A stretch of 63,125 nucleotides of DNA, filler included, from Chrysochromulina tobinii (taxonomy: Eukaryota), in assembly GCA_001275005.1 (NCBI GenBank). It is 11 parts of 11 records of this genome, joined end to end, with 100 filler letters (N's around TTAATTAATTAA, not from the genome) between each part and the next. Parts side by side here need not be neighbours in the genome. Positions count along the whole stretch, not along the records: positions 51,189 to 54,410 come from JWZX01000088.1; 10 more parts are not named here. One strand, 5' to 3'. The notes under the pieces were generated by a model, which did not search any database, was not told the origin of the DNA, and saw nothing but the letters and a program-made list of their open reading frames with translations. The position numbers were made by a program, and so were the translations under genes. Shown piece after piece: positions 10,561 through 54,410 of this stretch. Each line of letters begins with the position of its first letter. Positions within the stretch are counted from its first letter, which is position 1.

Positions 10561-12962
10561 GCCGCAGATTACATCACCCTTGTGCCTCCAGAGGCACAAG
10601 ACACGCCGAGTGCCCCCGACAGGTCACAGCATGCATGTACTCGATACGGCGCGTTTGCGCTTCCAGAGGCCTGCGACACGCCGAGTGCTCCGGGCAGCTC
10701 ATGCTCTTCACAGCAGCTATTCCTCACCGCCTGTGAAACGCCGAGTGCTTCGCTGGCGCGCGTGCCTTTGGTGGTGCGGTCGGGCGATAAGGTGGCGGCA
10801 GGGGCCAAAGGGCGCCGCTTGCAATGCTCGCTGGATGAGGTGGCTTTTGGTGTTGCGACCGTTACGACCGTTACGACCGTTGCGACCGTTGCGACCGTTA
10901 CGAACGAGCCACTGGACCCACCGCGCGCCGCGCCCACTACGGAGCCCGCCGCGGGGATGAGAGCCATCGACGCCCGCTACGACGCGCCCCCTTCGGACTT
11001 CGCGGCAGGGGTGCTGGCGGCGTTAGCCCAGCTTCCTGTTCACACTGCACCCCTGCCTGTTCACACTGCTCTTCCTGTTCACACTGCCCAAGCGGCGTTA
11101 GCCCGGCTTCCTTTCCCGCTGCTGCCGCACTTAAGTGATCCTGAGGGCAGCTGCCTAATTAGGACAGCCCCATTCCCTGAGGGCAGCTGCAGCAGCAGTG
11201 CCAGATCACTCCACCAGGTTGAGACAGCCGCCGTCGCGGAGACGGCTACGTCCACAGTCGCCGCTGCGCACACGGATGGCGTTGTCGGGCAGACGTTGGT
11301 GCATCGGACGGCGGCATCTCCGGCGCGTCAGACTCTACATGTCGTGGCATGGGCGGGCTTTGGTGCGGTGTACACTGTGGAGGTGCCCGGGACGGCGCGT
11401 CGCTTGGTGCCTGCTGCTAAGGGGGTGCAGGACGAGTTGCTGCGACGGCTCTGGTGGCGGCGGCTATGGGACATCATGTGCCAAGGCTCTGGTGACATTC
11501 CCTATTAGGCCACCGAGGGCTGGTGCCGATTCTATGTCTTCAGACATCTTGATGCCTGTGGCTGTGCGCTTGCTGTATGCTGACGTGAGCCTGAGGCTCT
11601 TCACGCCAAACGAATCTCGCATGGAAATAGAAAAGGGGGGTTATATAACAGTTATGAGTAACGATGTTAATGCATGAATTATGCATGGAATTATGTCGAT
11701 CTGGTGGTAAGTGTCTTAGCACGTATTTTTTCATGGAAAAAAACCCACACATGAATGGCATGTTATCACGATGACGCGTCTGGATGCACTTTTACGCTTC
11801 GCACTTCTTACCGACTGCACGTCGACGCCCGCCCCATCTCGTATTTGTACATGTACATGCGCTGGACGTGTTGCACGCCGGCGTGAAACGAGATCCGACA
11901 AACTTTTCGAACTCCCGCAATGCGGGACCCCACTCGACTTTTTCTCGCGGCCACGCCGCGTTCAGATGCGTGAGTAATATTGAACGGAAGGTGAGCGTCC
12001 CGGACCTTGACGACTCATCCTTCGCCCCACTCTTCTGCACAACGCCTTCAGCTGCCTCGCATGCACCGTATCCTCGAAGTCCTGTGGCAACACGGCGGCC
12101 TCGCTATAAACTCTTTCCAGAGTGGCCGCAGTGGAGTGCTTGCTGCCTTCTCAATCTCTCACACTCTTGCCCTGTAAGCACCCCTCATGTACACTAATCA
12201 TCGCCCATGTGCAACCGTGTGCTCACCCGAACTGTGCAGGTACCATCGCGACTTAAAACCCCTCATGGCACACACGCTGTCGCGTGAGCTTCGAAACGAG
12301 GCTCCTATCGGCGGACAAAGCTTGCGCCACCGGCTGGATAAGGTGCGGCAGCTCCTTGTCCACCATGATTGACATAGTCCAGCCGTCGCCGGCCGCGGGC
12401 CGTGGCTGGCACGTGCTGCACACCACCACCACATGCGGAGCCATTTCTGCCGCACGAAGATGGCTCCGCACCCGCCGCCCACGCCTCACCCCATCCCCGT
12501 GCTCCCGGACAGGTTCTGACGCATTGGTAGGCATCCTCGTGGTGGACAAGGAGGAGCCCAGCAGCAAGCGCGGGCACGGCGACGCGTGCGCGAGCGCTGG
12601 CGGCGTGTGGACGGCGACGCTCTCTAGCCGGCCCTTGAGAGAGGGCCGCGCGTCAGCCGTGAGGGTCCGCCGTGGGCGTTTGGGACCGGTCAAACGAGTA
12701 CTGTACCGACCTCGTACATGCTTGGGCCGGAGGTACACGCATCAGTTACGTGTGTAGGCTTTACTATTGACCCGCATTGCACTCATTTGTCGGAAAGCGA
12801 CGCGCTTGGTTTCACCCTGGCGTGCAACACGTCCAAGCTCAAGCGCGAGGCATCTCCGGCCGGCGCACCTGCTCTTGCCCACCTGCTCTTGCCGAGACCC
12901 GGAGACGCGCAGCTGTTCCTGTGTGAAATTGGTAGTTTGACTACTGTAAGTTTGTGACGTCA

Positions 12963-32646: not shown

Positions 32647-35600
32647 AGCGGCGACGGTAACGATGCCGACGGCAACGGCGACGAGCGCGCCCGGAAGCGG
32701 AGCCGCGGGGCGCACGCAGGGGGCGACGGAAACCACGCGGGCGACGGCGGTCGCGGCGTGAACGGCGGGGGCGACGGGGGAATCAGTCTTGACGAAGACG
32801 GATCCGCCGTCTTGACTCGAAAGATCCTCGTCCACGTACGCTACAAGATCACGCACGGAGGCGGACGGAGGGACGCATATCGCGTTCACGAGCGGTGGAT
32901 GCCACGCGACAACACGTCGACCGAGCTATATGCGGGCGTCGCAGCGACGCTGGGCACGGAGGGGCTTATCCTGCGGAGACGCGTCCCCCTAGAGTCGACG
33001 CGCCGCACACAAGCGGTCCGAGAAAACGGGGACGCCGTCGACGAGGCACGTCGCGCCGACGTATGGCTCCCGGACGGCGTGGACATTGTCCCTCGGGACG
33101 ACACACCGATCCGCTCCATACTCTACTACACCTACATGCTCCACGTCGACGCCGAGGAGGGCCCCGAAAGCGCGACCGCCCACGACGAAACGGCAGTTGG
33201 CGCAAGGGGCGACAACGGGGACGGCGGCGGCGGCGACGGAGAAGGCGGCGCCGACAGGGACGGCGAAGATGACGGAGAAGGCGGCGCCGACGGGGACGGC
33301 GACGATGGCGGCGGCGGCGATGGGGACAGGGGCGGCGGCGGCGACGGCGACGGAGGCGGCGGCGGAAGCGGCACGCGAGCGGACCACGGCGACGACCGTG
33401 GTCGCAGCGAGGGCAACGGGTCAACGCCCCCAAGCCTCCTGCACATAGCGGCCAACACGGTCGTGCTGCAATGCGCGACGCGCAGCGAACTCGGCTGGGC
33501 AGTAGTGCACTCGGGCGTACTTGCACCCAACGGCAGGAACGCATGGGACATCGCCGATCTAATCTGCCAAGAGCTCCTCGACATGGATGCCGGAACGCTT
33601 CCTGCCATCGGGAATGCCATCAGCACGGCGGCAACACGACACCTCAGTATTGACGGGCTCGTCGGCGATCTTTTCGCCGCCGCCCTAGACATCGTCCCGA
33701 CCCTTAACAGAGCGCTCCGAGGCCAACGCCGGCCAGACGTACAGCCGCGAATGCTCCTACGGGTTCTCCTCACCGCCGCGTATCGACCGGCCGCAGCCCG
33801 GTCTGAACGGCACGTGGCAGGTGATCCTCGCGCCCGAGGGCGAAGACGCATACTCGCTCCTTCGACTCGTACACGGAGGCGCATTCTCAAGCCGCGAAGC
33901 GGCGGTTGCACGACTAGCGCCAGTGTGGCACACCGTCGGCGCGACTCCCGCCATTACGTACGTACCGCGTCTCGCCGCGGCGGGTCTGAAGGATGCGGTG
34001 ACACCTCACCGGACGGACGACCCTGTCGAGCCGCCCCAGGTGGCACTGGCGATACAAGCTACTGCGGTGCCGACGGCGTCGGTCGGACCGGCGAGGGCGG
34101 CCGCTTGCGCCCATTTGGCCGACCACGACGGCACGCACGATCCCGTCCCTGACGCGCCGCCGACGGCAGCAGACGGCCCATCCACGCGCACTGACGGCGA
34201 AAGCGACACGAAAGAGGCGGCGGAGGAGATGGATTGGGGGGGAGAGGTGCACAGGGGCGACTTCGACGCCTCCCTCGGGAGATACCATCCGATTCGTGAT
34301 CCATCCACGCTCCGCCTCCCACCCCTCCACGAGCGACGCATTACACTCGCGGAAGCCCTCCAGGAGCTGCGCTTACGGAAGGAGGTGACCTCGGGCCACA
34401 ATCTCAACTGCCTTGCGTACTCTATCCTGCTCGGCACAGACAGAATCGCGCCGGCAGCGCAATGGGTGACAAAAGAGCGGGGTGACGAGGAGCGCCGGCG
34501 CACGCACGAGACCATCGTGCGCCGCCTCCCGCCGGAGGCGGACACAAAAATAGGTCCCAATGGGGTGTGGTGGGCGGGTCAGACGCGGGATAGCCTGACC
34601 AGGACGATGGAAACCTCTCAAGTCATGGGCGAGGCACACGTGCATGGCTTCTGCAACAGAATCGACCGCTGTATCGTGATCGTCGATGTACGGGAGTCGG
34701 CGGCCGTAATATACAAGTACCTGCCGGGCTACGCCGCGCAGAGTCAGATCTCCATGCGCGAAGCTCACGAACTACGTAACAGTGATGAGCAGCCCATCTG
34801 GGTACTACTCGAACCCGATCACTTCAGCGCACTGTTACCAATACGGCGGCCCATCGCCTCAACGCCGCAGGCGCCCACAGGAGCGGGGGCACCCGCCAAG
34901 GTGACAAATGGCGCGGGGGCAGGCTCCGCGAGCGCGACGGCACAGGAACCGGAACAACGACCCTCACTACCGGAAAAGGGGTCAGCGCCGGTACCGGACA
35001 AACCCGAGGGTACGCAACAGCGGGGGGACGCAGCGGAGACAAAGATCGAGTGGGCCACGCGGATCTTCACGGACATGGGATACCCAATCGGCGCACGCAC
35101 GGAGATCGGGGACGCGGACGTGTACGCGATCGCACGGTATGTCGCGGACGCAACGGCCGGCGTGGAGGAAGCCGGGGACGGAAGATTCAACGAAGCGGCA
35201 GTACGCGAATACATCCGGGAGGGAGGAGGCGACGACAGTACGTACCCGCGCCATATACTACGACAAGCGGTGGGGGACTACCTTCGGCTGCAAAGAGGGG
35301 CCAAACACGCGCGCGACCTTTCCCCCGCCCACCAGGCCGACAACACGGCGGACGACCGAATAGTCTGGCCAGGCGATTCGGTGCGCCTGCAACGCGAGGA
35401 CACACCTGGGCAGCACACCCGCTGGAAGGCATGGAAACAGGGAACCACGGGAACGGTCCTTCGCAGCGCCGGTCGGGGCGACTGGACGGTCCTCATCGAG
35501 GACAAGGCGGGAAAGATCGAGGTCCACGTCCATGACCACGAGGTGCACCTCCTCGCCAAGCGCGCACCGGCGGCAGGGGACGTCATTCTTTCCACAAGGA

Positions 35601-36937
35601 GCACCCCACACACCACCGCGGCGAGGGCCGGGCGGAAGGGCACTCCGGGTACGCACGCATTGATCTTACGGCGGCGGGCACCGGACGACGTGGCGCGCGG
35701 GGGCGCAACCTGGCACGCCTTCCACTGGCATGACCACAGGTACGTGGTCGTCCACGAGGAGGACATGACGCGTGCCCCGTGGCAAGCCCCGTACCGACAG
35801 CAGGAAAGCACGCTGCAATCGCTGAAGGCTCAGGGGGCACTAGTGACAATAGCACAACGCGTGTACGCCCAAACGGGGGACTGGGGAGGCGAGATCCTCT
35901 CGGCTACAATGGACGCCGCCGCACGGGACGGACTCCACACCGATGCGGGGCAGGCGAGCAGGGCAATCCAAGAGGCGAAACAACGATGGCAAGGGGGACG
36001 GCCATGCGCGCACATGGTCACGCTCAATCACGGGGGTATCCTCGTACGCTTACGCGAGACCACCGCGGCCATCCCCGGGCAGCGACGCATGGCGACGGCG
36101 CCAGCACACGCGGACACCGCCGCGCTGGCGTGGGAAGCAGACGGCAGACTATGGCGCACGATGCACACTCTCGCCGACGGGAACGACGTCGTTCTATTAC
36201 AGGAGACCCACCTCCCGGAGCTCGACCCAGAGGGCCGCAGCGAGCGGGTCATGCAAATGCTCACGAGCGGCGAGTACTCGACGTGGCGCGCGGCGGCGTC
36301 GCCCGCCCCGGTGGACGACGCGTATGCGGGCGTTCTCATGTGGTGGAACACCGCCACAGTAGAGGTAACGGAGATCCAAACACTGACACCTGGACGGCTC
36401 CAGCGCGCGAGGGTCCGCGTCTTAGCGGACGGTACGGATTTCATCGTCGTAAACGCGTACGTCCCCACCAAGCGAGGCGCACCGACCGTCCGCCAAGCGA
36501 CAATTCTCGAACACGTCCGGGCACACATCCAGGCAGCAATCGACACGGCGGACGACGCCGGCGACGAGATCGTCATCGGGGGCGACCTCCAGGCTCAGAC
36601 GTCGGCCACCCTCGAAGCGCGCAAGGACACGGGCAGTGTCAATGCGTACGACTCGTGGCTCGACACACTGTGCGCGGAACACTGCCTCCTGAGCGTCGGC
36701 GATGACGAACCCACCTACAGCGGGGGGGCCGGCGGCCCGCAGACGACTATAGACCACTGGCTCGTCAGCACGGGACTCGCCGACCGGGCAGCGGCGGAAG
36801 TGGGAGCGGGCGCGGACGGGCTCGCGGGACTGGGGGACGGTACGCACGGGCACAACTCCCTACAACTGAGCATTACCCTGCGCACCGCCGAAGCGGAGGA
36901 CGCAGAAGAGAAATGGGAGCAGCGGGAACCGCAACTA
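32647..36937 (+). mobile_element. Non-LTR retrotransposon 5' part: OTU-like protease + APE endonuclease (RT not reached before the contig ends)
   Basis: APE motifs VTLNHGG, VVLLQETH, VVNAYVP, IVIGGDLQ, PTY, TIDHWLVS, GH; OTU-like GHNLNCLAYS...EPDHFSALL. Confidence 0.78.
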
Positions 36938-49181: not shown

Positions 49182-51088
49182 AACGTGCAGACGTACAGCC
49201 TCCTCAGGTACGATGTCCAGAGCATGCAGGTGGCCGGGGTGATGAGATGCACGAACCTGTGGTGCTCGATCATGGGCCGCTTCTCGCAGATGAACATGAG
49301 CGGCAGCAGCTCCTACTTAGAGGCGACGCACATCTTCTTGGAAGGCAGCGACCTGAACATGCAGGGCAGCAGCAGGCTCGATGCCTCGGCGCGCGGCTTT
49401 GCCCAGCTCAATGGCACCGGAGCCGGCGCCGAGCCGTCGGATGGTTACGGCGGCGGCAGCGGCGGCGGGCATGGCGGCACCGGCGGCACCGGCCACGGCG
49501 GAAACGCCGGGGGCGTCGCGTACGGCGTGATCGAGCAGCCCGTCACCGCCGGCAGTGGCGGCGGGCGTGGAAGGTATCCGAGCTACTTGACCTACGTGCC
49601 AACCGTCGGCACGTGGGCGGCTGGGCGTGCAGCGTGCCAGTCTCTCGGCGGTGATCTCGCAAGCATACACAGTGCCGCGGAGAACGACGCTGTGAGGGCC
49701 GTCGTCCCTCACACCACCGCCGCCTGGATCGGTGCGACTGATGCGGTGAGCGAGGGCACCTGGAGGTGGTCCGATGGCACTCCGTGGGACTACTCCAGCT
49801 GGCACCCTGGTGAGCCCAACAACCAGGGCGACGAGGATTGTGGCGAAGCATATGCGGACCATCCAGGCTGGAACGATATGCCTTGTTCAAGGGACCTTGG
49901 TGCCGTGTGCCGGTTGCCTGCTGCGGCTGCCGTCCACTTCCGCGACGGCGGCGCAGGCGGAGGCACCGTGCGCATCGACGTGCGCGGCACGCTGACCTTG
50001 GCGCCATCGGCTTCGGTTCGTGCCAACGGCGCACAGGGCGCCGACTCAGGCATCAGCTGCCAGTCCAGATGCCTCGACAACGCGTACAACGGAGGTGGCG
50101 GTGCAGCGGCTGGCTCGATATGGATCACCGCCGAAAGCGTGCTCGGCAACGGCTCTCTGCAGGCGACGGGCGGGGCCGGAGGCGCAGCGGGCGCACGTAG
50201 CGGCTCGTGGCAGAACGCTGGAGGCGGCGGGGCTGGCGGACGTATCGCTGTGCACTGCGCGTCGCAGCTCGCAAGCGGCATTTCAATGAGCGCAGTCGGC
50301 GGCCAGAGGGGGTCGAACGACGCGGGCAGTGAGGGTGTGGGTGCGCCTGGGACCATCTTCACGTCTGTGGGTGGCGTTCGCACGCTTGTGGTGGACAACG
50401 CGGCGACGAGCTCGTCGCTGGTCGGCGGCTACGTGCGACTGCCTGCGAACGGCAACGGCAGCCTTGCTCTGCACACACTTAGGCTCGTGAACAGCAAGGT
50501 CGATGTGCACTACAGCGTGAACGCGGCGCACGTGATTGGCTTGTCGTCTGACGTGACTACGCGCTTGCTCGATGCTACCTCGCTGTCGACAAGCTCGTGC
50601 ACATGGCTGGCGCACTCGCGCGTCGCAACTGTGACGATGCAGCTCCTAAATACAGTTTGGACGAGCGCGGCGCCGATCGCAGCGTCGAGCACGCTCAAGA
50701 TCAACGGATCGACCACGCTCACGATCAACGCATCCGTCGGTCGCATCGAGGCCGGCACGTTGTTGGTCGAGACCGGCGCCATCCTGACGACGTCATCGAT
50801 ATCTGACGGTGTGCTCGATGTGGTGGCCGGCACAATGCGTGTGCAGGGCACCGGCGCCGTGAGGTCAGGTGCGCTGCACGTCAATGCGTCCAGCTGGTCG
50901 GTCGAGGCGTCTGAGTCGAACGTGCAGACGTACAGCCTCCTCAGGTACGATGTCCAGAGCATGCAGGTGGCCGGGGTGATGAGATGCACGAACCTGTGGT
51001 GCTCGATCATGGGCCGCTTCTCGCAGATGAACATGAGCGGCAGCAGCTCCTACTTAGAGGCGACGCACATCTTCTTGGAAGGCAGCGA
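49182..51088 (+). CDS. Internal fragment of a large Gly-rich repeat surface protein with a C-type lectin domain
   Basis: GGGHGG/GSGGG/GGAGGG repeats; CTLD W..ACQSLGGDLASIHS..WIG..W.WSDG..WHPGEPNN..EDC..WND.PC; 170-nt identical ends 1737 nt apart. Confidence 0.85.
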
Positions 51089-51294
51089 NNNNNNNNNNNN
51101 NNNNNNNNNNNNNNNNNNNNNNNNNNNNNNNNTTAATTAATTAANNNNNNNNNNNNNNNNNNNNNNNNNNNNNNNNNNNNNNNNNNNNTATAGTACTCGT
51201 GAGGGGCATCTGTATCTTACCACTGTTCCTCTTATCCACACTGATCCTCAATGTACCGCCCGTTACGCTGTGGGCCGCGCTCATGGGTCGATTC

Positions 51295-51560
51295 ACTGCT
51301 CTCGACTAAGGAGAGGCTTACCGTACTGCTCTCGACTAAGGAGAGGCTCACTGACTTTGTACTGCTCTCGACTGATGAGAGACTTGTGCTGCTCTCTACG
51401 GGTGAGAGGCTTTGGTTTGCATGCTGCAACGCGCTCGGCTCGTGAGAGCGTGCGCCGTCGTCGGCCCCTCGACTAGTGAGGGGCCGGTTGGGCTGCGGTG
51501 TGCTTCCGACTAAGGGAAGCGCACCGGCTTACTGGCCTGTTCTTCGCCTACTGAGAGGCT
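51295..51560. repeat. Array of short stem-loops with 7-nt loops (GACTAAG-like)
   Basis: ctctc-gactaag-gagag x2, ctctc-gactgat-gagag, ctctc-tacgggt-gagag, ggcccctc-gactagt-gaggggcc, cggtgtgcttcc-gactaag-ggaagcgcaccg. Confidence 0.8.
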
Positions 51561-51789
51561 CATGCTGCGTACTTGTTACGAGCTGCTCGGCACACTTGGT
51601 GCTTTGCCGGGCTGCAGGCAGAGGGATCGCAAGCGATCGCCTACCTGAGCCCTCTCGGCCTGGCTGCTGTGCTGTGCTTGGCTTGCGCTGAGGCCCGAGG
51701 GCGCTGCAGCGGGTGCTGGGCGGGGCTGGCTCTGGCGGGCGGCGCGGCGGCTCTGTGCCGCTGGCCTCGTAGCCGTAATCGTCTGCACT

Positions 51790-54410
51790 TCAGGGGGAGT
51801 GCCCGTAGTCGCTGTCCACGCCATCGAGGAGGCCAGACTCGTAGTGTACTCGAGTCATTTCGAGTTGCTCTCTGCGCGTGAACTCGATATGGCCTACTTG
51901 TGCGGGCGCGGGCTCTGCATCGTTGGCGGCTTCGGCATCTGGTGCGTCATCGCCGTCCGTGCCGGGCCCTTCGGCCCAGTCCATGGCGGCTAGCTCTTCG
52001 ATGGTGTGCGCCGACGCCAGTCTCTGGATGTCTTTCGACACTCGGACGGCCATGCGTGCGTCCCTTGCAAAGGCGGTGCTCTGTGCGTATCTGTCCGGCA
52101 GGACCGCACATTTGAGCCTGTGTTTCTTGAGCTCTGCTGGTTCTGGGACTAGCGTGGCGCTCTGCGCGGCGCTGCCGGAGAAACGCCCGAGGCCGTGCCG
52201 CTCGATCGGCCCGAGAAGCATGCGTGCGGCGTGCTTGAGCATCATGGGCTTGAGCGAGTGGACCTTGAACTCGAGTAGCGACGGCGGCTTGCACGCGAGC
52301 GGCGGGAGCGACAGCAGAAACTGTAGCGCCGCGTCGGCCCGTCCGCCGAGGATGGGGCCGTTGGTGAAGGCGCAGCCTTCGACAGGTGCGCCGGAGGCCG
52401 AGTCGTTGTCACGGACGAGGAAGCAGCCGTCTTCGACGTCGCGGAGCGCGTCATAGACCTCGTCGATGACGCCGCGCGAGCCGTAGGCGTCGAGGATAGG
52501 CCCGAAGGCCGGGCGCGGCGACTGCTTGTGCGGCTCATTGGACTTGTCCACCTGAACGCACGTGTAGAGCACGCCGTTCTTTTCGGCCAGGATGGCGCAC
52601 GCCTGCGCTTGTTTGAACCTCGACGTCTGCGAAGCCACGAGCGCGAAGCCGGCGGCGGTGCCGCGCACGACGCGGCTGTGGTGGTGCGTGGCGAGGTAGC
52701 AGAGCTGAGCGTAATGTGGTGGCTCAAGCGCCGGCGTCGGGATGGAGGTTGTTGTACCAAACTTGCGCTTGCAGACGAGTGCGTCGTCTGCCGCCGTGGC
52801 CATCTTGACGTTGTCGAGCAGCCAGCGCAGGGAACGGAAGGCGGTTTTGGCGGCTGTGCGCCCGTCGCGCCTCTGCTGCTGCGCTGTGAGCACTCTGCCT
52901 TCGGCCTCGGCCTTATCTCTGTACGCTTTGGCGGCGTCGACGGCCTTGACGTTGACCTCGTCGAGGAAGCTGTTAGTGAGCTGCGCCGGGTACGTGTCGT
53001 TGTCGGCTGCATCGTACTCTCCCTTTGCTTCGGCGTATGCCCGGAGGCGCGTCAGCGTGGAGAGGGCGCCTTTGAGCGTGGACGTGCCCCATCGGGCGAG
53101 GAACGTCACGAGCTCGTCGGCGCAGTTCACGCTGTAGGGCTCGTCGTCGTGGAGCCGCATGGCCGTCTTGATGAGGTCTCTCCCCCAAATGCCGGCAATC
53201 GTCTGCAGCGAGAGGGCTGAGGCGAGCTGGCATGCGGCCCGAGTCCTGTTCGCCTGGTCTCTCATCTTGCCAGTAATGAGGGGCCCGCCTTTTTTATTTC
53301 TGCCCAACTGAGCCGGCATGAGTAGCTGCACCGCTTCGCTGATGGCGCAGCTGGCCTTGGCCCAGGCGACGTAGCGGCCGTCGCCTTGAAGCGCTGCCTC
53401 CATGGGTACTGCGACGCCGATGGGCTGGTATTGCTCGAGGCCGCTGTGCTGGCCGGTGGGCACCACGAGAGCCCGTTGCTGTGCGGCATGCGTGCTGGGC
53501 TGTTCGGCGAGGTGCTGTTGGTGCAGCAGGTACGTCGCCGAGGCTGGGATGGTGTCGCGTGCCGTATTGGCAGCGATGTAGAGGCGGTTTCGGCTAGGTA
53601 GTGCTGGCTTTCTCGGCTGCTTGTCGCGGATCGTGTTCCACACGTAGTGACCCTCGGGGTAGGACAGCAGCGCTCGCCGTACTTCTTCTTGCTCTCCTGC
53701 GATGGCACGAGCGACCTGCTCGGCTCTCGCTTTGAGCTCTTCCGCCTGGTTCGACTCGCGCAGCCCTTGCATGATGTGCTGGAGCCGCGAGCCGGGCATG
53801 CCGACGCTGGAGTCGGATCTGGTGTTGTGGAGGCGGCTCTGCTGCTGCACTCCGAATGGCACCAGCTGGCCGCCCATCCCGTGCGACGGCTCCACGGGAG
53901 TCGTAGTCGCAGCAGGCGGAGGGCCCGGGGGGTTGCAGAACATGCTGCGCTCGAGCGCCGACGATGGCCACTCCGACGAGGCGCTAGAGCTGCCCGGCTG
54001 GTAGCCACGCTGGCCGGGCTGCGGCGTGTCGTCCCAGATGTTGTGCCACGCGCCTGCGCCGCTGGGGTCGATGGTGCCATCGAGGTCCCCATATGGGGTG
54101 AACACCCTGATAAGGCGGCCGACCGGGGTCGGCTGCTGCGCGGGTGGCGCTGCGCTCGGGCGTTCGTCATCGTGGGTATCGCGCGGCGCGATGCCGCTGA
54201 TCGGCTGCGCGCTCTCGCTGGCGCTTCCGCCCTCGCTCCCTGCTGAGGGGGCGATTGATTCATCTTCTGCAGCTTGCGCGTGCGCGTCGGAGATGTGCTC
54301 GTCGCCCGCTAGAGTTTCGACCTGGGCACCGACGGCAGGGTCACCTGCTCGTGGTGGGCCGGCTTGTACTCCAGAATCGCGACCCCGCTTCTGTGCTCCG
54401 CGGCGCGTCT
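51790..54410 (-). mobile_element. Tyrosine recombinase ORF of a DIRS/Ngaro/Crypton-like element, 5'-partial
   Basis: Ordered catalytic-like motifs TSRFKQAQ (R), VDKS (K), VHSLK (HxxK/R), RHGLGRF, DRYA (Y). The frame is open to the contig edge. Confidence 0.72.

What the first reader, a model, noticed from the sequence alone, without database searches (positions are those of the whole stretch)
51189..51790. Covarying 7-nt-loop hairpin array downstream of a tyrosine recombinase
Seen: at least six stem-loops in about 270 nt, whose stems differ (CTCTC/GAGAG, GGCCCCTC/GAGGGGCC, CGGTGTGCTTCC/GGAAGCGCACCG) while loop length stays 7 nt and mostly GACTAAG/GACTAGT/GACTGAT. Stem mismatches are T-G on the plus strand, which favours folding of the strand antisense to the YR ORF. 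Inference: a selected ssDNA/RNA structure such as attC-like folded recombination sites, a cDNA-circularisation signal or a multivalent protein-binding RNA of a YR element.
Basis: partly seen in the sequence, partly recalled or inferred. Interest (0 to 1): 0.7.

Follow-up and report, generated by a model that had tools for sequence, protein, structure and literature searches.

The report
Hairpin array in a reshuffled retrotransposon
Six small hairpin-forming repeats sit in the middle of an algal jumping gene whose three genes appear to be arranged in an order not found in the papers searched, and they are likely a landing pad that lets the element's own protein pick out the element's RNA for copying.

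Summary
The array is real: six 7-nt-loop hairpins at 51299-51526 (0 of 5000 shuffles reach six). Four are tandem duplicates, so the independent covariation comes from the two long stems and from other copies. It lies inside a methyltransferase-less, Ngaro-like tyrosine-recombinase (YR) retrotransposon of a Chrysochromulina-like haptophyte. Pieced from overlapping contigs, the layout is A1 - YR> - array - B1|A2 - <Gag-like - RT/RNaseH> - B2 (about 8.5 kb): YR first, internal repeats in mid-element, Gag-like gene inverted. I did not find this layout in 7 literature searches. The array occurs behind YR but not behind RT, persists in a subfamily 72% identical in YR, and persists in a deep-coverage contig set that includes a YR-deleted derivative. 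Shared G-T wobbles favour the window + strand (11:1, p about 0.04 post hoc). The hairpins are not the recombination site: element left ends map about 390 nt away, inside a separate bulged hairpin at the B|A junction that folds better on the opposite strand. Best reading (0.45): a multivalent protein-binding signal on the Gag-sense RNA. No binding, strand or activity was shown.

The parts
51299..51408 (+). H1-H4: four tandem 5-bp-stem / 7-nt-loop hairpins (CTCTC-GACTRRK-GAGAG; H4 loop degenerate). 4 units here, 5 in L012, 3 in subfamily 2
51438..51449 (+). small hairpin with a GTGA tetraloop (GNRA type on this strand; motif class recalled). Kept in L005, L006 and L010; TTGA in L012
51460..51488 (+). 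H5: long stem, loop GACTAGT; subfamily 2 has a different stem sequence around the same loop
51496..51526 (+). H6: 12-bp stem, loop GACTAAG; two compensatory T-A to C-G changes in a variant contig
   Evidence: (table 3)
51215..51575 (.). segment (array plus about 70 conserved nt) present behind YR but missing from the corresponding place behind RT; boundaries approximate
   Evidence: (joint 51221-51633)
51578..51710 (.). b': 3' segment shared by the YR end and the RT end (72% over 114 nt to L013)
51189..51215 (-). start of internal repeat B1 (continues off-contig as L003 11548-11828, then the B|A junction and A2 at 11829-12131)
51790..54410 (-). tyrosine recombinase ORF (874 aa; ATG just off the contig at L003 8322): variable N-terminal part, then a Cre-like fold
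54371..54410 (-). last 40 nt of left repeat A1 (303 nt in L003 8063-8365, identical to A2)

Best explanation
The array is a conserved set of stem-loops inside a tyrosine-recombinase retrotransposon, and it likely works as a multivalent protein-binding (packaging or template-selection) signal on the element's RNA, predicted to fold on the window + strand and to be read through its shared GACURRK loops by the element's own Gag-like zinc-finger protein. Shown: the hairpins, their conservation and covariation, their place inside the element, their absence behind RT, and the A1-YR-array-B1-A2-inverted Gag-like order on one contig (L003). Pieced from overlapping contigs: the RT half and the start of B2. 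Inferred: the + (Gag-sense) strand is the RNA that is packaged and reverse-transcribed; the resulting single-stranded cDNA is then the YR-sense strand, on which the B|A junction would fold into a bulged hairpin that the YR would use to integrate; stems can vary because the protein would read loop sequence on any stable stem, and 5-7 copies would give avidity.
For: Loop kept while stems change: in 12 aligned units 7 of 9 pairs show two-sided changes, with a covariation score of 0.33 against 0.09-0.18 for slid controls (the units are related, so this is not a probability). One variant contig seen in 4 of 4 runs carries 51499/51523 and 51504/51518 T-A to C-G; L012 has the T-G intermediate at the first pair. 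Subfamily 2 (72% YR identity) keeps the tandem units, H5, H6 and the tetraloop hairpin, with a rewritten H5 stem of about 16 bp and 4 G-T pairs. Mismatches shared between copies: 11 G-T to 1 A-C on + (hand count; p=0.043 against the 1.87:1 compositional expectation). In run X5 the array contigs have depth 214-285 against 58 for the YR catalytic region, and a contig of depth 251 skips 51719-53381, so a YR-less derivative seems to keep the array. The junction hairpin folds better on the opposite strand with DNA energies in 3 of 3 copies (z -4.0/-2.9, -3.1/-1.7, -4.1/-1.7). The third ORF ends in a conserved CCCH-type finger. DIRS-1 cDNA is single-stranded (PMC7192593, passages).
Against: No binding, expression-strand or activity data; the RNA runs laid were contigs without strand. 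Whole-array z-scores do not separate the strands (RNA -2.5 vs -2.7; in L012 the YR strand is better). Counting all mismatches gives 12:3 (p=0.18), and internal-only 10:2 (p=0.15); the 11:1 subset was chosen post hoc. With RNA energies the junction also prefers the YR strand in 2 of 3 copies, so the RNA/cDNA roles of the two structures could be swapped. YR and RT are both on the other strand and repeat A holds the YR start codon, which is the orthodox sign of a YR-sense genomic RNA. The Gag assignment is positional only: no fold match, Pfam CCCH E 0.12-0.5. One stem position is broken in the deep variant (51502) and H5 is rearranged in L012. Contig depth is not copy number, and no single contig joins the YR deletion to the array. 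No complete element was seen on one contig.
Confidence: 0.45

Rival explanations
1. The genomic RNA is YR/RT-sense, and the array folds in the single-stranded first-strand cDNA (+ strand) as a loading or second-strand priming signal, like a single-strand origin.
For: Same strand evidence; best DNA-energy z-score on + (-4.3 vs -3.4); A1 holds the YR start, as a 5' repeat would; DIRS-1 cDNA is single-stranded.
Against: Long stems with several G-T pairs suit RNA better than DNA (general knowledge); the junction fold, where DNA is cut, prefers the other strand.
Confidence: 0.2
2. A transcription or 3'-end control element that makes the internal B copy behave differently from the terminal one: read-through at B1, or stopping Gag-sense transcripts before they run antisense into YR.
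For: The array is inserted between b' and B only at the internal copy; the divergent gene layout makes antisense overlap a real problem.
Against: Does not explain a conserved 7-nt loop sequence repeated 5-7 times unless a protein binds it; the array is more than 800 nt from the Gag-like stop.
Confidence: 0.15
3. Double-stranded DNA binding sites (inverted half-sites around a 7-bp spacer, as in YR core sites) for the YR or a host factor, with apparent covariation made by template switching between arms.
For: A constant 7-bp spacer and inverted arms resemble YR sites (recalled); four units share one arm sequence; L012 H5 shows a local rearrangement.
Against: Arms of H5, H6 and subfamily 2 share little sequence beyond the innermost 1-3 bp while pairing is kept; the conserved part is the spacer.
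Confidence: 0.1
4. attC-like folded recombination sites.
For: Hairpins next to a YR gene; strand asymmetry.
Against: 4 of 4 intact left ends start at the A boundary, which matches the B|A junction about 390 nt away; the stems of 5 bp are too short for two YR monomers (general knowledge); no breakpoint seen maps to a loop centre as a recurring site.
Confidence: 0.04
5. Neutral by-product of tandem duplication of one palindrome.
For: H1-H4 are tandem copies with variable number.
Against: Retained in two subfamilies whose 3' regions otherwise align poorly; compensatory changes.
Confidence: 0.06

Closest known systems
Ngaro retrotransposons (order DIRS); passages read in PMC8547959, PMC3783388, PMC4157794, PMC3266345
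   Same: YR plus RT/RNase H, no methyltransferase, split direct repeats with an internal B|A junction, non-overlapping ORFs.
   Different: Ngaro is A1-[gag, RT/RH, YR]-B1A2B2 with the internal repeats after all ORFs. Here YR is first, B1A2 is mid-element, the Gag-like ORF is on the opposite strand and RT is a stand-alone ORF of about 813 aa placed last.
Nematode Pat1-like and Kangaroo elements (PMC4157794 passages)
   Same: Internal repeats separate YR from pol; an inverted ORF occurs (YR in Kangaroo); a Gag zinc finger occurs in Pat1.
   Different: They carry an MT domain and have pol before YR. Here the order is the circular permutation of that layout, YR and RT are co-oriented, and the Gag-like gene is the inverted one.
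VIPER/TATE (PMC6681497 passages)
   Same: No MT (per PMC4157794, PMC3266345), split direct repeats; ORFs listed there as Gag-like, YR, RT/RH.
   Different: Repeats A1 ... B1A2B2 at the 3' end; kinetoplastid hosts.
Retroviral/LTR packaging signals and multi-hairpin protein-binding RNAs (recalled; only search listings seen)
   Same: Works like: clustered stem-loops with conserved loops read by a zinc-finger Gag.
   Different: No sequence or Rfam similarity (one chance hit, E 3.4); position is mid-element.
Integron attC sites (recalled)
   Same: The B|A junction, not the array, forms a long bulged hairpin with a strand preference and contains the insertion boundary.
   Different: Folding-dependent recombination is untested; the YR model resembles Cre more than IntI (IntI at rank 41).

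Membership tests
YR retrotransposons (order DIRS) | tyrosine recombinase | tested here: met
   AlphaFold model (mean pLDDT 71) has Cre as all top Foldseek hits (best E 2.5e-3, prob 1.0; none at E<=0.001), then XerH, Tn1549 and lambda Int; Atlas 0.96 to clusters with PF00589; R, K, HxxK, GRF and Y motifs conserved (motif roles recalled). No Pfam hit.
YR retrotransposons (order DIRS) | RT and RNase H in the same element | tested here: met
   L012 holds YR, array, B|A, a Gag-like fragment and RT/RH. An independent lake contig joins the Gag-like fragment to the RT upstream region. RVT_1 in 3 of 19 members, best E 0.0019, below cut-off; YxDD and RNase H motifs (motif names recalled).
YR retrotransposons (order DIRS) | Gag-like ORF | tested here: inconclusive
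   424-aa ORF, 30 homologues, C-terminal CCCH-type finger; no fold match; Atlas hits unnamed.
Ngaro | no methyltransferase domain | tested here: met
   Full-length RT/RH homologues are about 813 aa and end about 45 aa after the RNase H motif; in L013 the stop is followed by b' and B. The whole element was not seen on one contig.
Ngaro | split direct repeats A1...B1A2...B2 | tested here: inconclusive
   A1=A2, 303 nt, 100%; only the first 36 or so nt of B2 were seen behind RT; the right end was never seen. A and B depth about twice the array depth in X5 is a weak hint.
Ngaro | internal repeats downstream of all ORFs; co-oriented gag-pol-YR | tested here: not met
   B1A2 lies between YR and the inverted Gag-like ORF in both subfamilies (L003, L007); RT follows, divergent from Gag-like.
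Ngaro | RT falls in the Ngaro clade | not tested
   No named reference sequences were returned.
PAT / Kangaroo | MT domain after RNase H | tested here: not met
PAT / Kangaroo | YR inverted relative to RT (Kangaroo) | tested here: not met
   Co-oriented in L012, consistent and with two in-frame YR-RNase H fusion proteins, P0016 and P0266.
DIRS1-like | inverted terminal repeats plus ICR | tested here: not met
   Self-comparison of L003 shows direct, not inverted, repeats.
Crypton (YR DNA transposon) | YR without RT | tested here: not met
   RT linked.
attC-like site (array) | crossover lies within the folded site | tested here: not met
   Left ends map to the A boundary.
attC-like site (B|A junction) | bulged hairpin containing the crossover, conserved by covariation | tested here: inconclusive
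   Predicted fold z -3 to -4 on the YR strand; outer stem rewritten in subfamily 2; only two subfamilies; right ends unseen.
attC-like site (B|A junction) | strand-specific recombination of folded ssDNA | not testable with these tools
   needs biochemistry
Packaging signal | bound by Gag and required in cis for packaging | not testable with these tools
   only indirect: apparent retention in a YR-deleted derivative

The most novel reading that the evidence does not exclude
A 'negative-sense' YR retrotransposon: a circularly permuted, two-module element whose packaged and reverse-transcribed RNA is antisense to both its RT and its recombinase, marked by a GACURRK hairpin array that its Gag reads, and whose single-stranded cDNA integrates through an integron-like folded B|A junction. 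The array would also tell the internal repeat from the terminal one.
Probability: 0.27. Interest if true: 0.82.

Novelty: new variant of a known kind. Interest (0 to 1): 0.62.

Why it matters
How DIRS-order elements prime, select their RNA and integrate is largely unknown; for DIRS-1, PMC7192593 states that no primer is known and YR specificity is untested (passages). This element puts Gag on one strand and RT/YR on the other, and has two folded features with opposite strand preferences. One stranded experiment can therefore tell which strand is the genome, which is the cDNA and which structure each protein reads, a distinction that co-oriented Ngaro elements cannot give. Intact ORFs, identical A repeats and a freshwater alga with cultured relatives make it testable. 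The gene order also extends the known range of YR-retrotransposon layouts.

Tried and rejected
No whole genome was held. Rfam: one chance hit. A hammerhead ribozyme was considered because of CTGATGAG at H3 and rejected because no GAAA core follows (sequence, motif recalled). tRNA-arm mimicry and kissing loops were considered: only GACTAGT and GACTGGT loops are self-complementary, and the anticodon-loop pattern does not fit. Coding explanation: stops in all six frames over the array. Pfam and PDB sequence searches missed the YR and nearly missed the RT. Gag-like fold searches gave nothing above background (best Z 4.8). Viral contigs: 0 loci in 4 scans; genome contigs: 0 for the hairpin pattern and one stray eukaryote-type contig for RT, whose MAG held no further piece of the element. 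A hairpin-less non-autonomous family was first suspected from the 51221-51633 joint and reinterpreted as the RT-end copy after L013; a real hairpin-less derivative is not excluded. Whole-region z-scores did not decide the strand. RNA-run contigs cover the array (X17) but show neither strand nor transcription. The Gag-like profile found no homologue among the RT-search proteins, including the long ones. No covariance model was built: only two subfamilies were in hand. No complex prediction was run. Sequence and place look-ups of earlier findings were empty. Literature searches showed no paper on Ngaro hairpin arrays or on this gene order; Repbase/Dfam, subscription reviews and supplements were not seen and may hold such elements.

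Full report
Observation. The window is a set of eukaryotic contigs joined by 11 linkers; the finding lies on the contig 51189-54410. Six hairpins with a 7-nt loop and at least 5 Watson-Crick pairs are present at 51299-51526. Shuffles give a mean of 0.49, and 0 of 5000 reach six. H1-H4 are a tandem duplication with one stem sequence, so the shuffle test overstates independence. The region is non-coding (stops in all six frames) and has no Rfam match beyond one chance hit.

The neighbouring gene. The minus-strand ORF 51790-54410 has no Pfam or PDB sequence hit. It has 23 homologues among 7994 candidates scored, with conserved R, K, HxxK, GRF and Y positions (roles recalled). Its model matches Cre first and other tyrosine recombinases next, though no hit reaches E 0.001, and the Atlas points to PF00589 clusters. 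One member of its 90% cluster is a Chrysochromulina tobinii protein, and the DNA occurs in freshwater and mixed-culture runs, so the host is likely a Chrysochromulina-like haptophyte.

The element. One search returned 12 loci. L002 and L003 contain the whole contig at 100% (L001 3206 of 3222 nt). L003 shows A1 (303 nt, holding the YR start codon), YR, the array, B1, an identical A2, and then a 424-aa CCCH-finger ORF on the opposite strand. A second subfamily (72% YR identity) has the same A2 / inverted-ORF adjacency (L007). L012 continues into an RT/RNase H ORF on the YR strand. Its homologues are stand-alone proteins of about 813 aa without a methyltransferase. An independent lake contig joins the Gag-like fragment to the RT upstream region with 727 letters between, in the same orientation as in L012, so the two genes are divergent. 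Two in-frame YR-RNase H fusions agree with YR and RT being co-oriented. Equal longest-contig lengths for YR and RT proteins (8293, 18075) hint at complete copies that I could not read. L013 shows what follows RT: a segment b' 72% like window 51606-51710, then directly the start of B, with no array. A contig joint 51221-51633 and matching loose ends show the same array-less form in runs holding the window's own family. The layout is therefore A1-YR>-b'-array-B1|A2-<Gag-like-RT/RH>-b'-B2, about 8.5 kb. It is pieced together, and the right end was never seen.

Is the array selected? A variant contig present in 4 of 4 runs laid carries two compensatory changes in H6 (51499/51523 and 51504/51518), one break (51502), and possibly a third compensatory pair in the weak outer H5 stem (51455/51492) (pairing read from the sequence). 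L012 shows T-G at 51499/51523. Subfamily 2 keeps three tandem units, H5 with a rewritten stem of about 16 bp, H6 and a GTGA-loop hairpin, in a different order and spacing. Across 12 aligned units (a hand-picked non-redundant subset; H6 variants with bulges were left out) 7 of 9 pairs change on both sides, above all slid controls; relatedness inflates this. In run X5 the array has depth 214-285 against 58 for the YR catalytic region, and a contig of depth 251 skips 51719-53381. This suggests an amplified YR-less derivative that keeps the array; depth is not copy number, and no contig spans both features.

Which strand? Mismatches shared by several copies are 11 G-T to 1 A-C on + (p=0.043 given composition). 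All mismatches give 12:3 (p=0.18) and internal ones 10:2 (p=0.15) (hand counts, subset chosen post hoc). Whole-array z-scores do not discriminate. The preference for + (Gag-sense, antisense to YR and RT) is modest.

Where recombination happens. Four of four intact left ends (L003, L012, L006, L005; L007's is truncated) begin at the A boundary, which matches the internal B|A junction about 390 nt from H1. After reading earlier AI notes on folded junctions in other Ngaro elements, I folded this junction: it forms a long bulged hairpin, its outer stem differs between subfamilies, and with DNA energies it prefers the YR strand in 3 of 3 copies. With RNA energies it does so in 2 of 3. So the array is not the attC-like site; the junction is the candidate.

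Mechanism. Two folded features with opposite strand preferences fit one being in the RNA and the other in the single-stranded cDNA; DIRS-1 cDNA is single-stranded (PMC7192593, passages). The junction is where DNA is cut and the array is rich in G-U pairs, so I place the array on the Gag-sense RNA as a multivalent binding signal for the CCCH-finger protein (0.45). That would make the reverse-transcribed RNA antisense to RT and YR. The swapped assignment (0.2), a read-through or termination role that distinguishes B1 from B2 (0.15), duplex binding sites (0.1), neutrality (0.06) and attC-like sites (0.04) are the rivals. All functional steps are inferred.

Comparison with what is known. From passages of PMC4157794, PMC6681497, PMC3266345, PMC8547959 and PMC3783388: Ngaro and VIPER lack MT and have B1A2B2 after the ORFs; nematode Pat1 and Kangaroo have MT and internal repeats between MT and YR; Kangaroo and one Daphnia element invert YR. 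This element works like a Ngaro-type split-repeat YR retrotransposon but fails the Ngaro gene-order and repeat-position features, and it fails the PAT MT feature; the RT phylogeny was not tested. The YR-first order is the circular permutation of the Pat1 layout. PMC3266345 leaves the Emiliania element unclassified; passages of PMC12477816 added nothing. Seven searches showed no paper on such arrays or this order; Repbase, subscription reviews and supplements were not seen. Earlier AI notes describe hairpin arrays in other Ngaro tails; these are unchecked leads, and they suggest that the array is a recurring feature of the group rather than unique here.

Verdict. Observation confirmed; interpretation partly supported; new variant of a known kind; interest 0.62.

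Noticed in passing
L003 11802-11888; L012 12190-12277; L010 1720-1808 (about 280 nt beyond the window contig end at 51189): The B|A junction folds into a long bulged hairpin containing the left-end boundary; its outer stem is rewritten in subfamily 2 and it prefers the YR-sense strand.
   Followed up: partly
L007 11634-12181 / L009; L011 / L012 10711-11443; L001 11480; L010 about 1215; L005 3164-3443; L004 about 285: Most copies carry internal inversions, deletions or duplications; L001 lacks 735 nt that L003 has at the same locus. These may be real rearrangements or amplification/assembly chimeras; read laying shows the unrearranged forms for L012.
   Followed up: partly
L012 9113-9137: The host flank ends in a perfect 12-bp inverted repeat right at the insertion point; 3 of 4 left flanks end in ACTG and the fourth in GAC.
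   Followed up: no
L003 8233, 11787, 11999; L001 12817; L005 298, 309: An ACCGTTAC motif lies upstream of the YR start, near the end of B and between the Gag-like and RT genes, always in one orientation; a possible promoter element.
   Followed up: no
P0016, P0266: Two different in-frame YR-RNase H fusion ORFs, probably deletion products.
   Followed up: partly
P0251, P0265, P0275, P0285, P0218, P0300: Distant relatives of this RT carry DUF4326 or SET domains; P0300 has an N-terminal part that looks like a cytosine methyltransferase by recalled motifs, with no Pfam hit.
   Followed up: no
window 33821-36937 +: ORF with an endonuclease/exonuclease/phosphatase domain cut by a contig end, possibly a LINE.
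   Followed up: no
window 49182-51088: C-type lectin ORF whose contig begins and ends with the same stretch of about 170 nt, suggesting a collapsed tandem repeat gene.
   Followed up: no
whole window: Contigs are joined by N44-TTAATTAATTAA-N44 linkers at 11 places, so neighbours across linkers are not genomic neighbours.
   Followed up: yes
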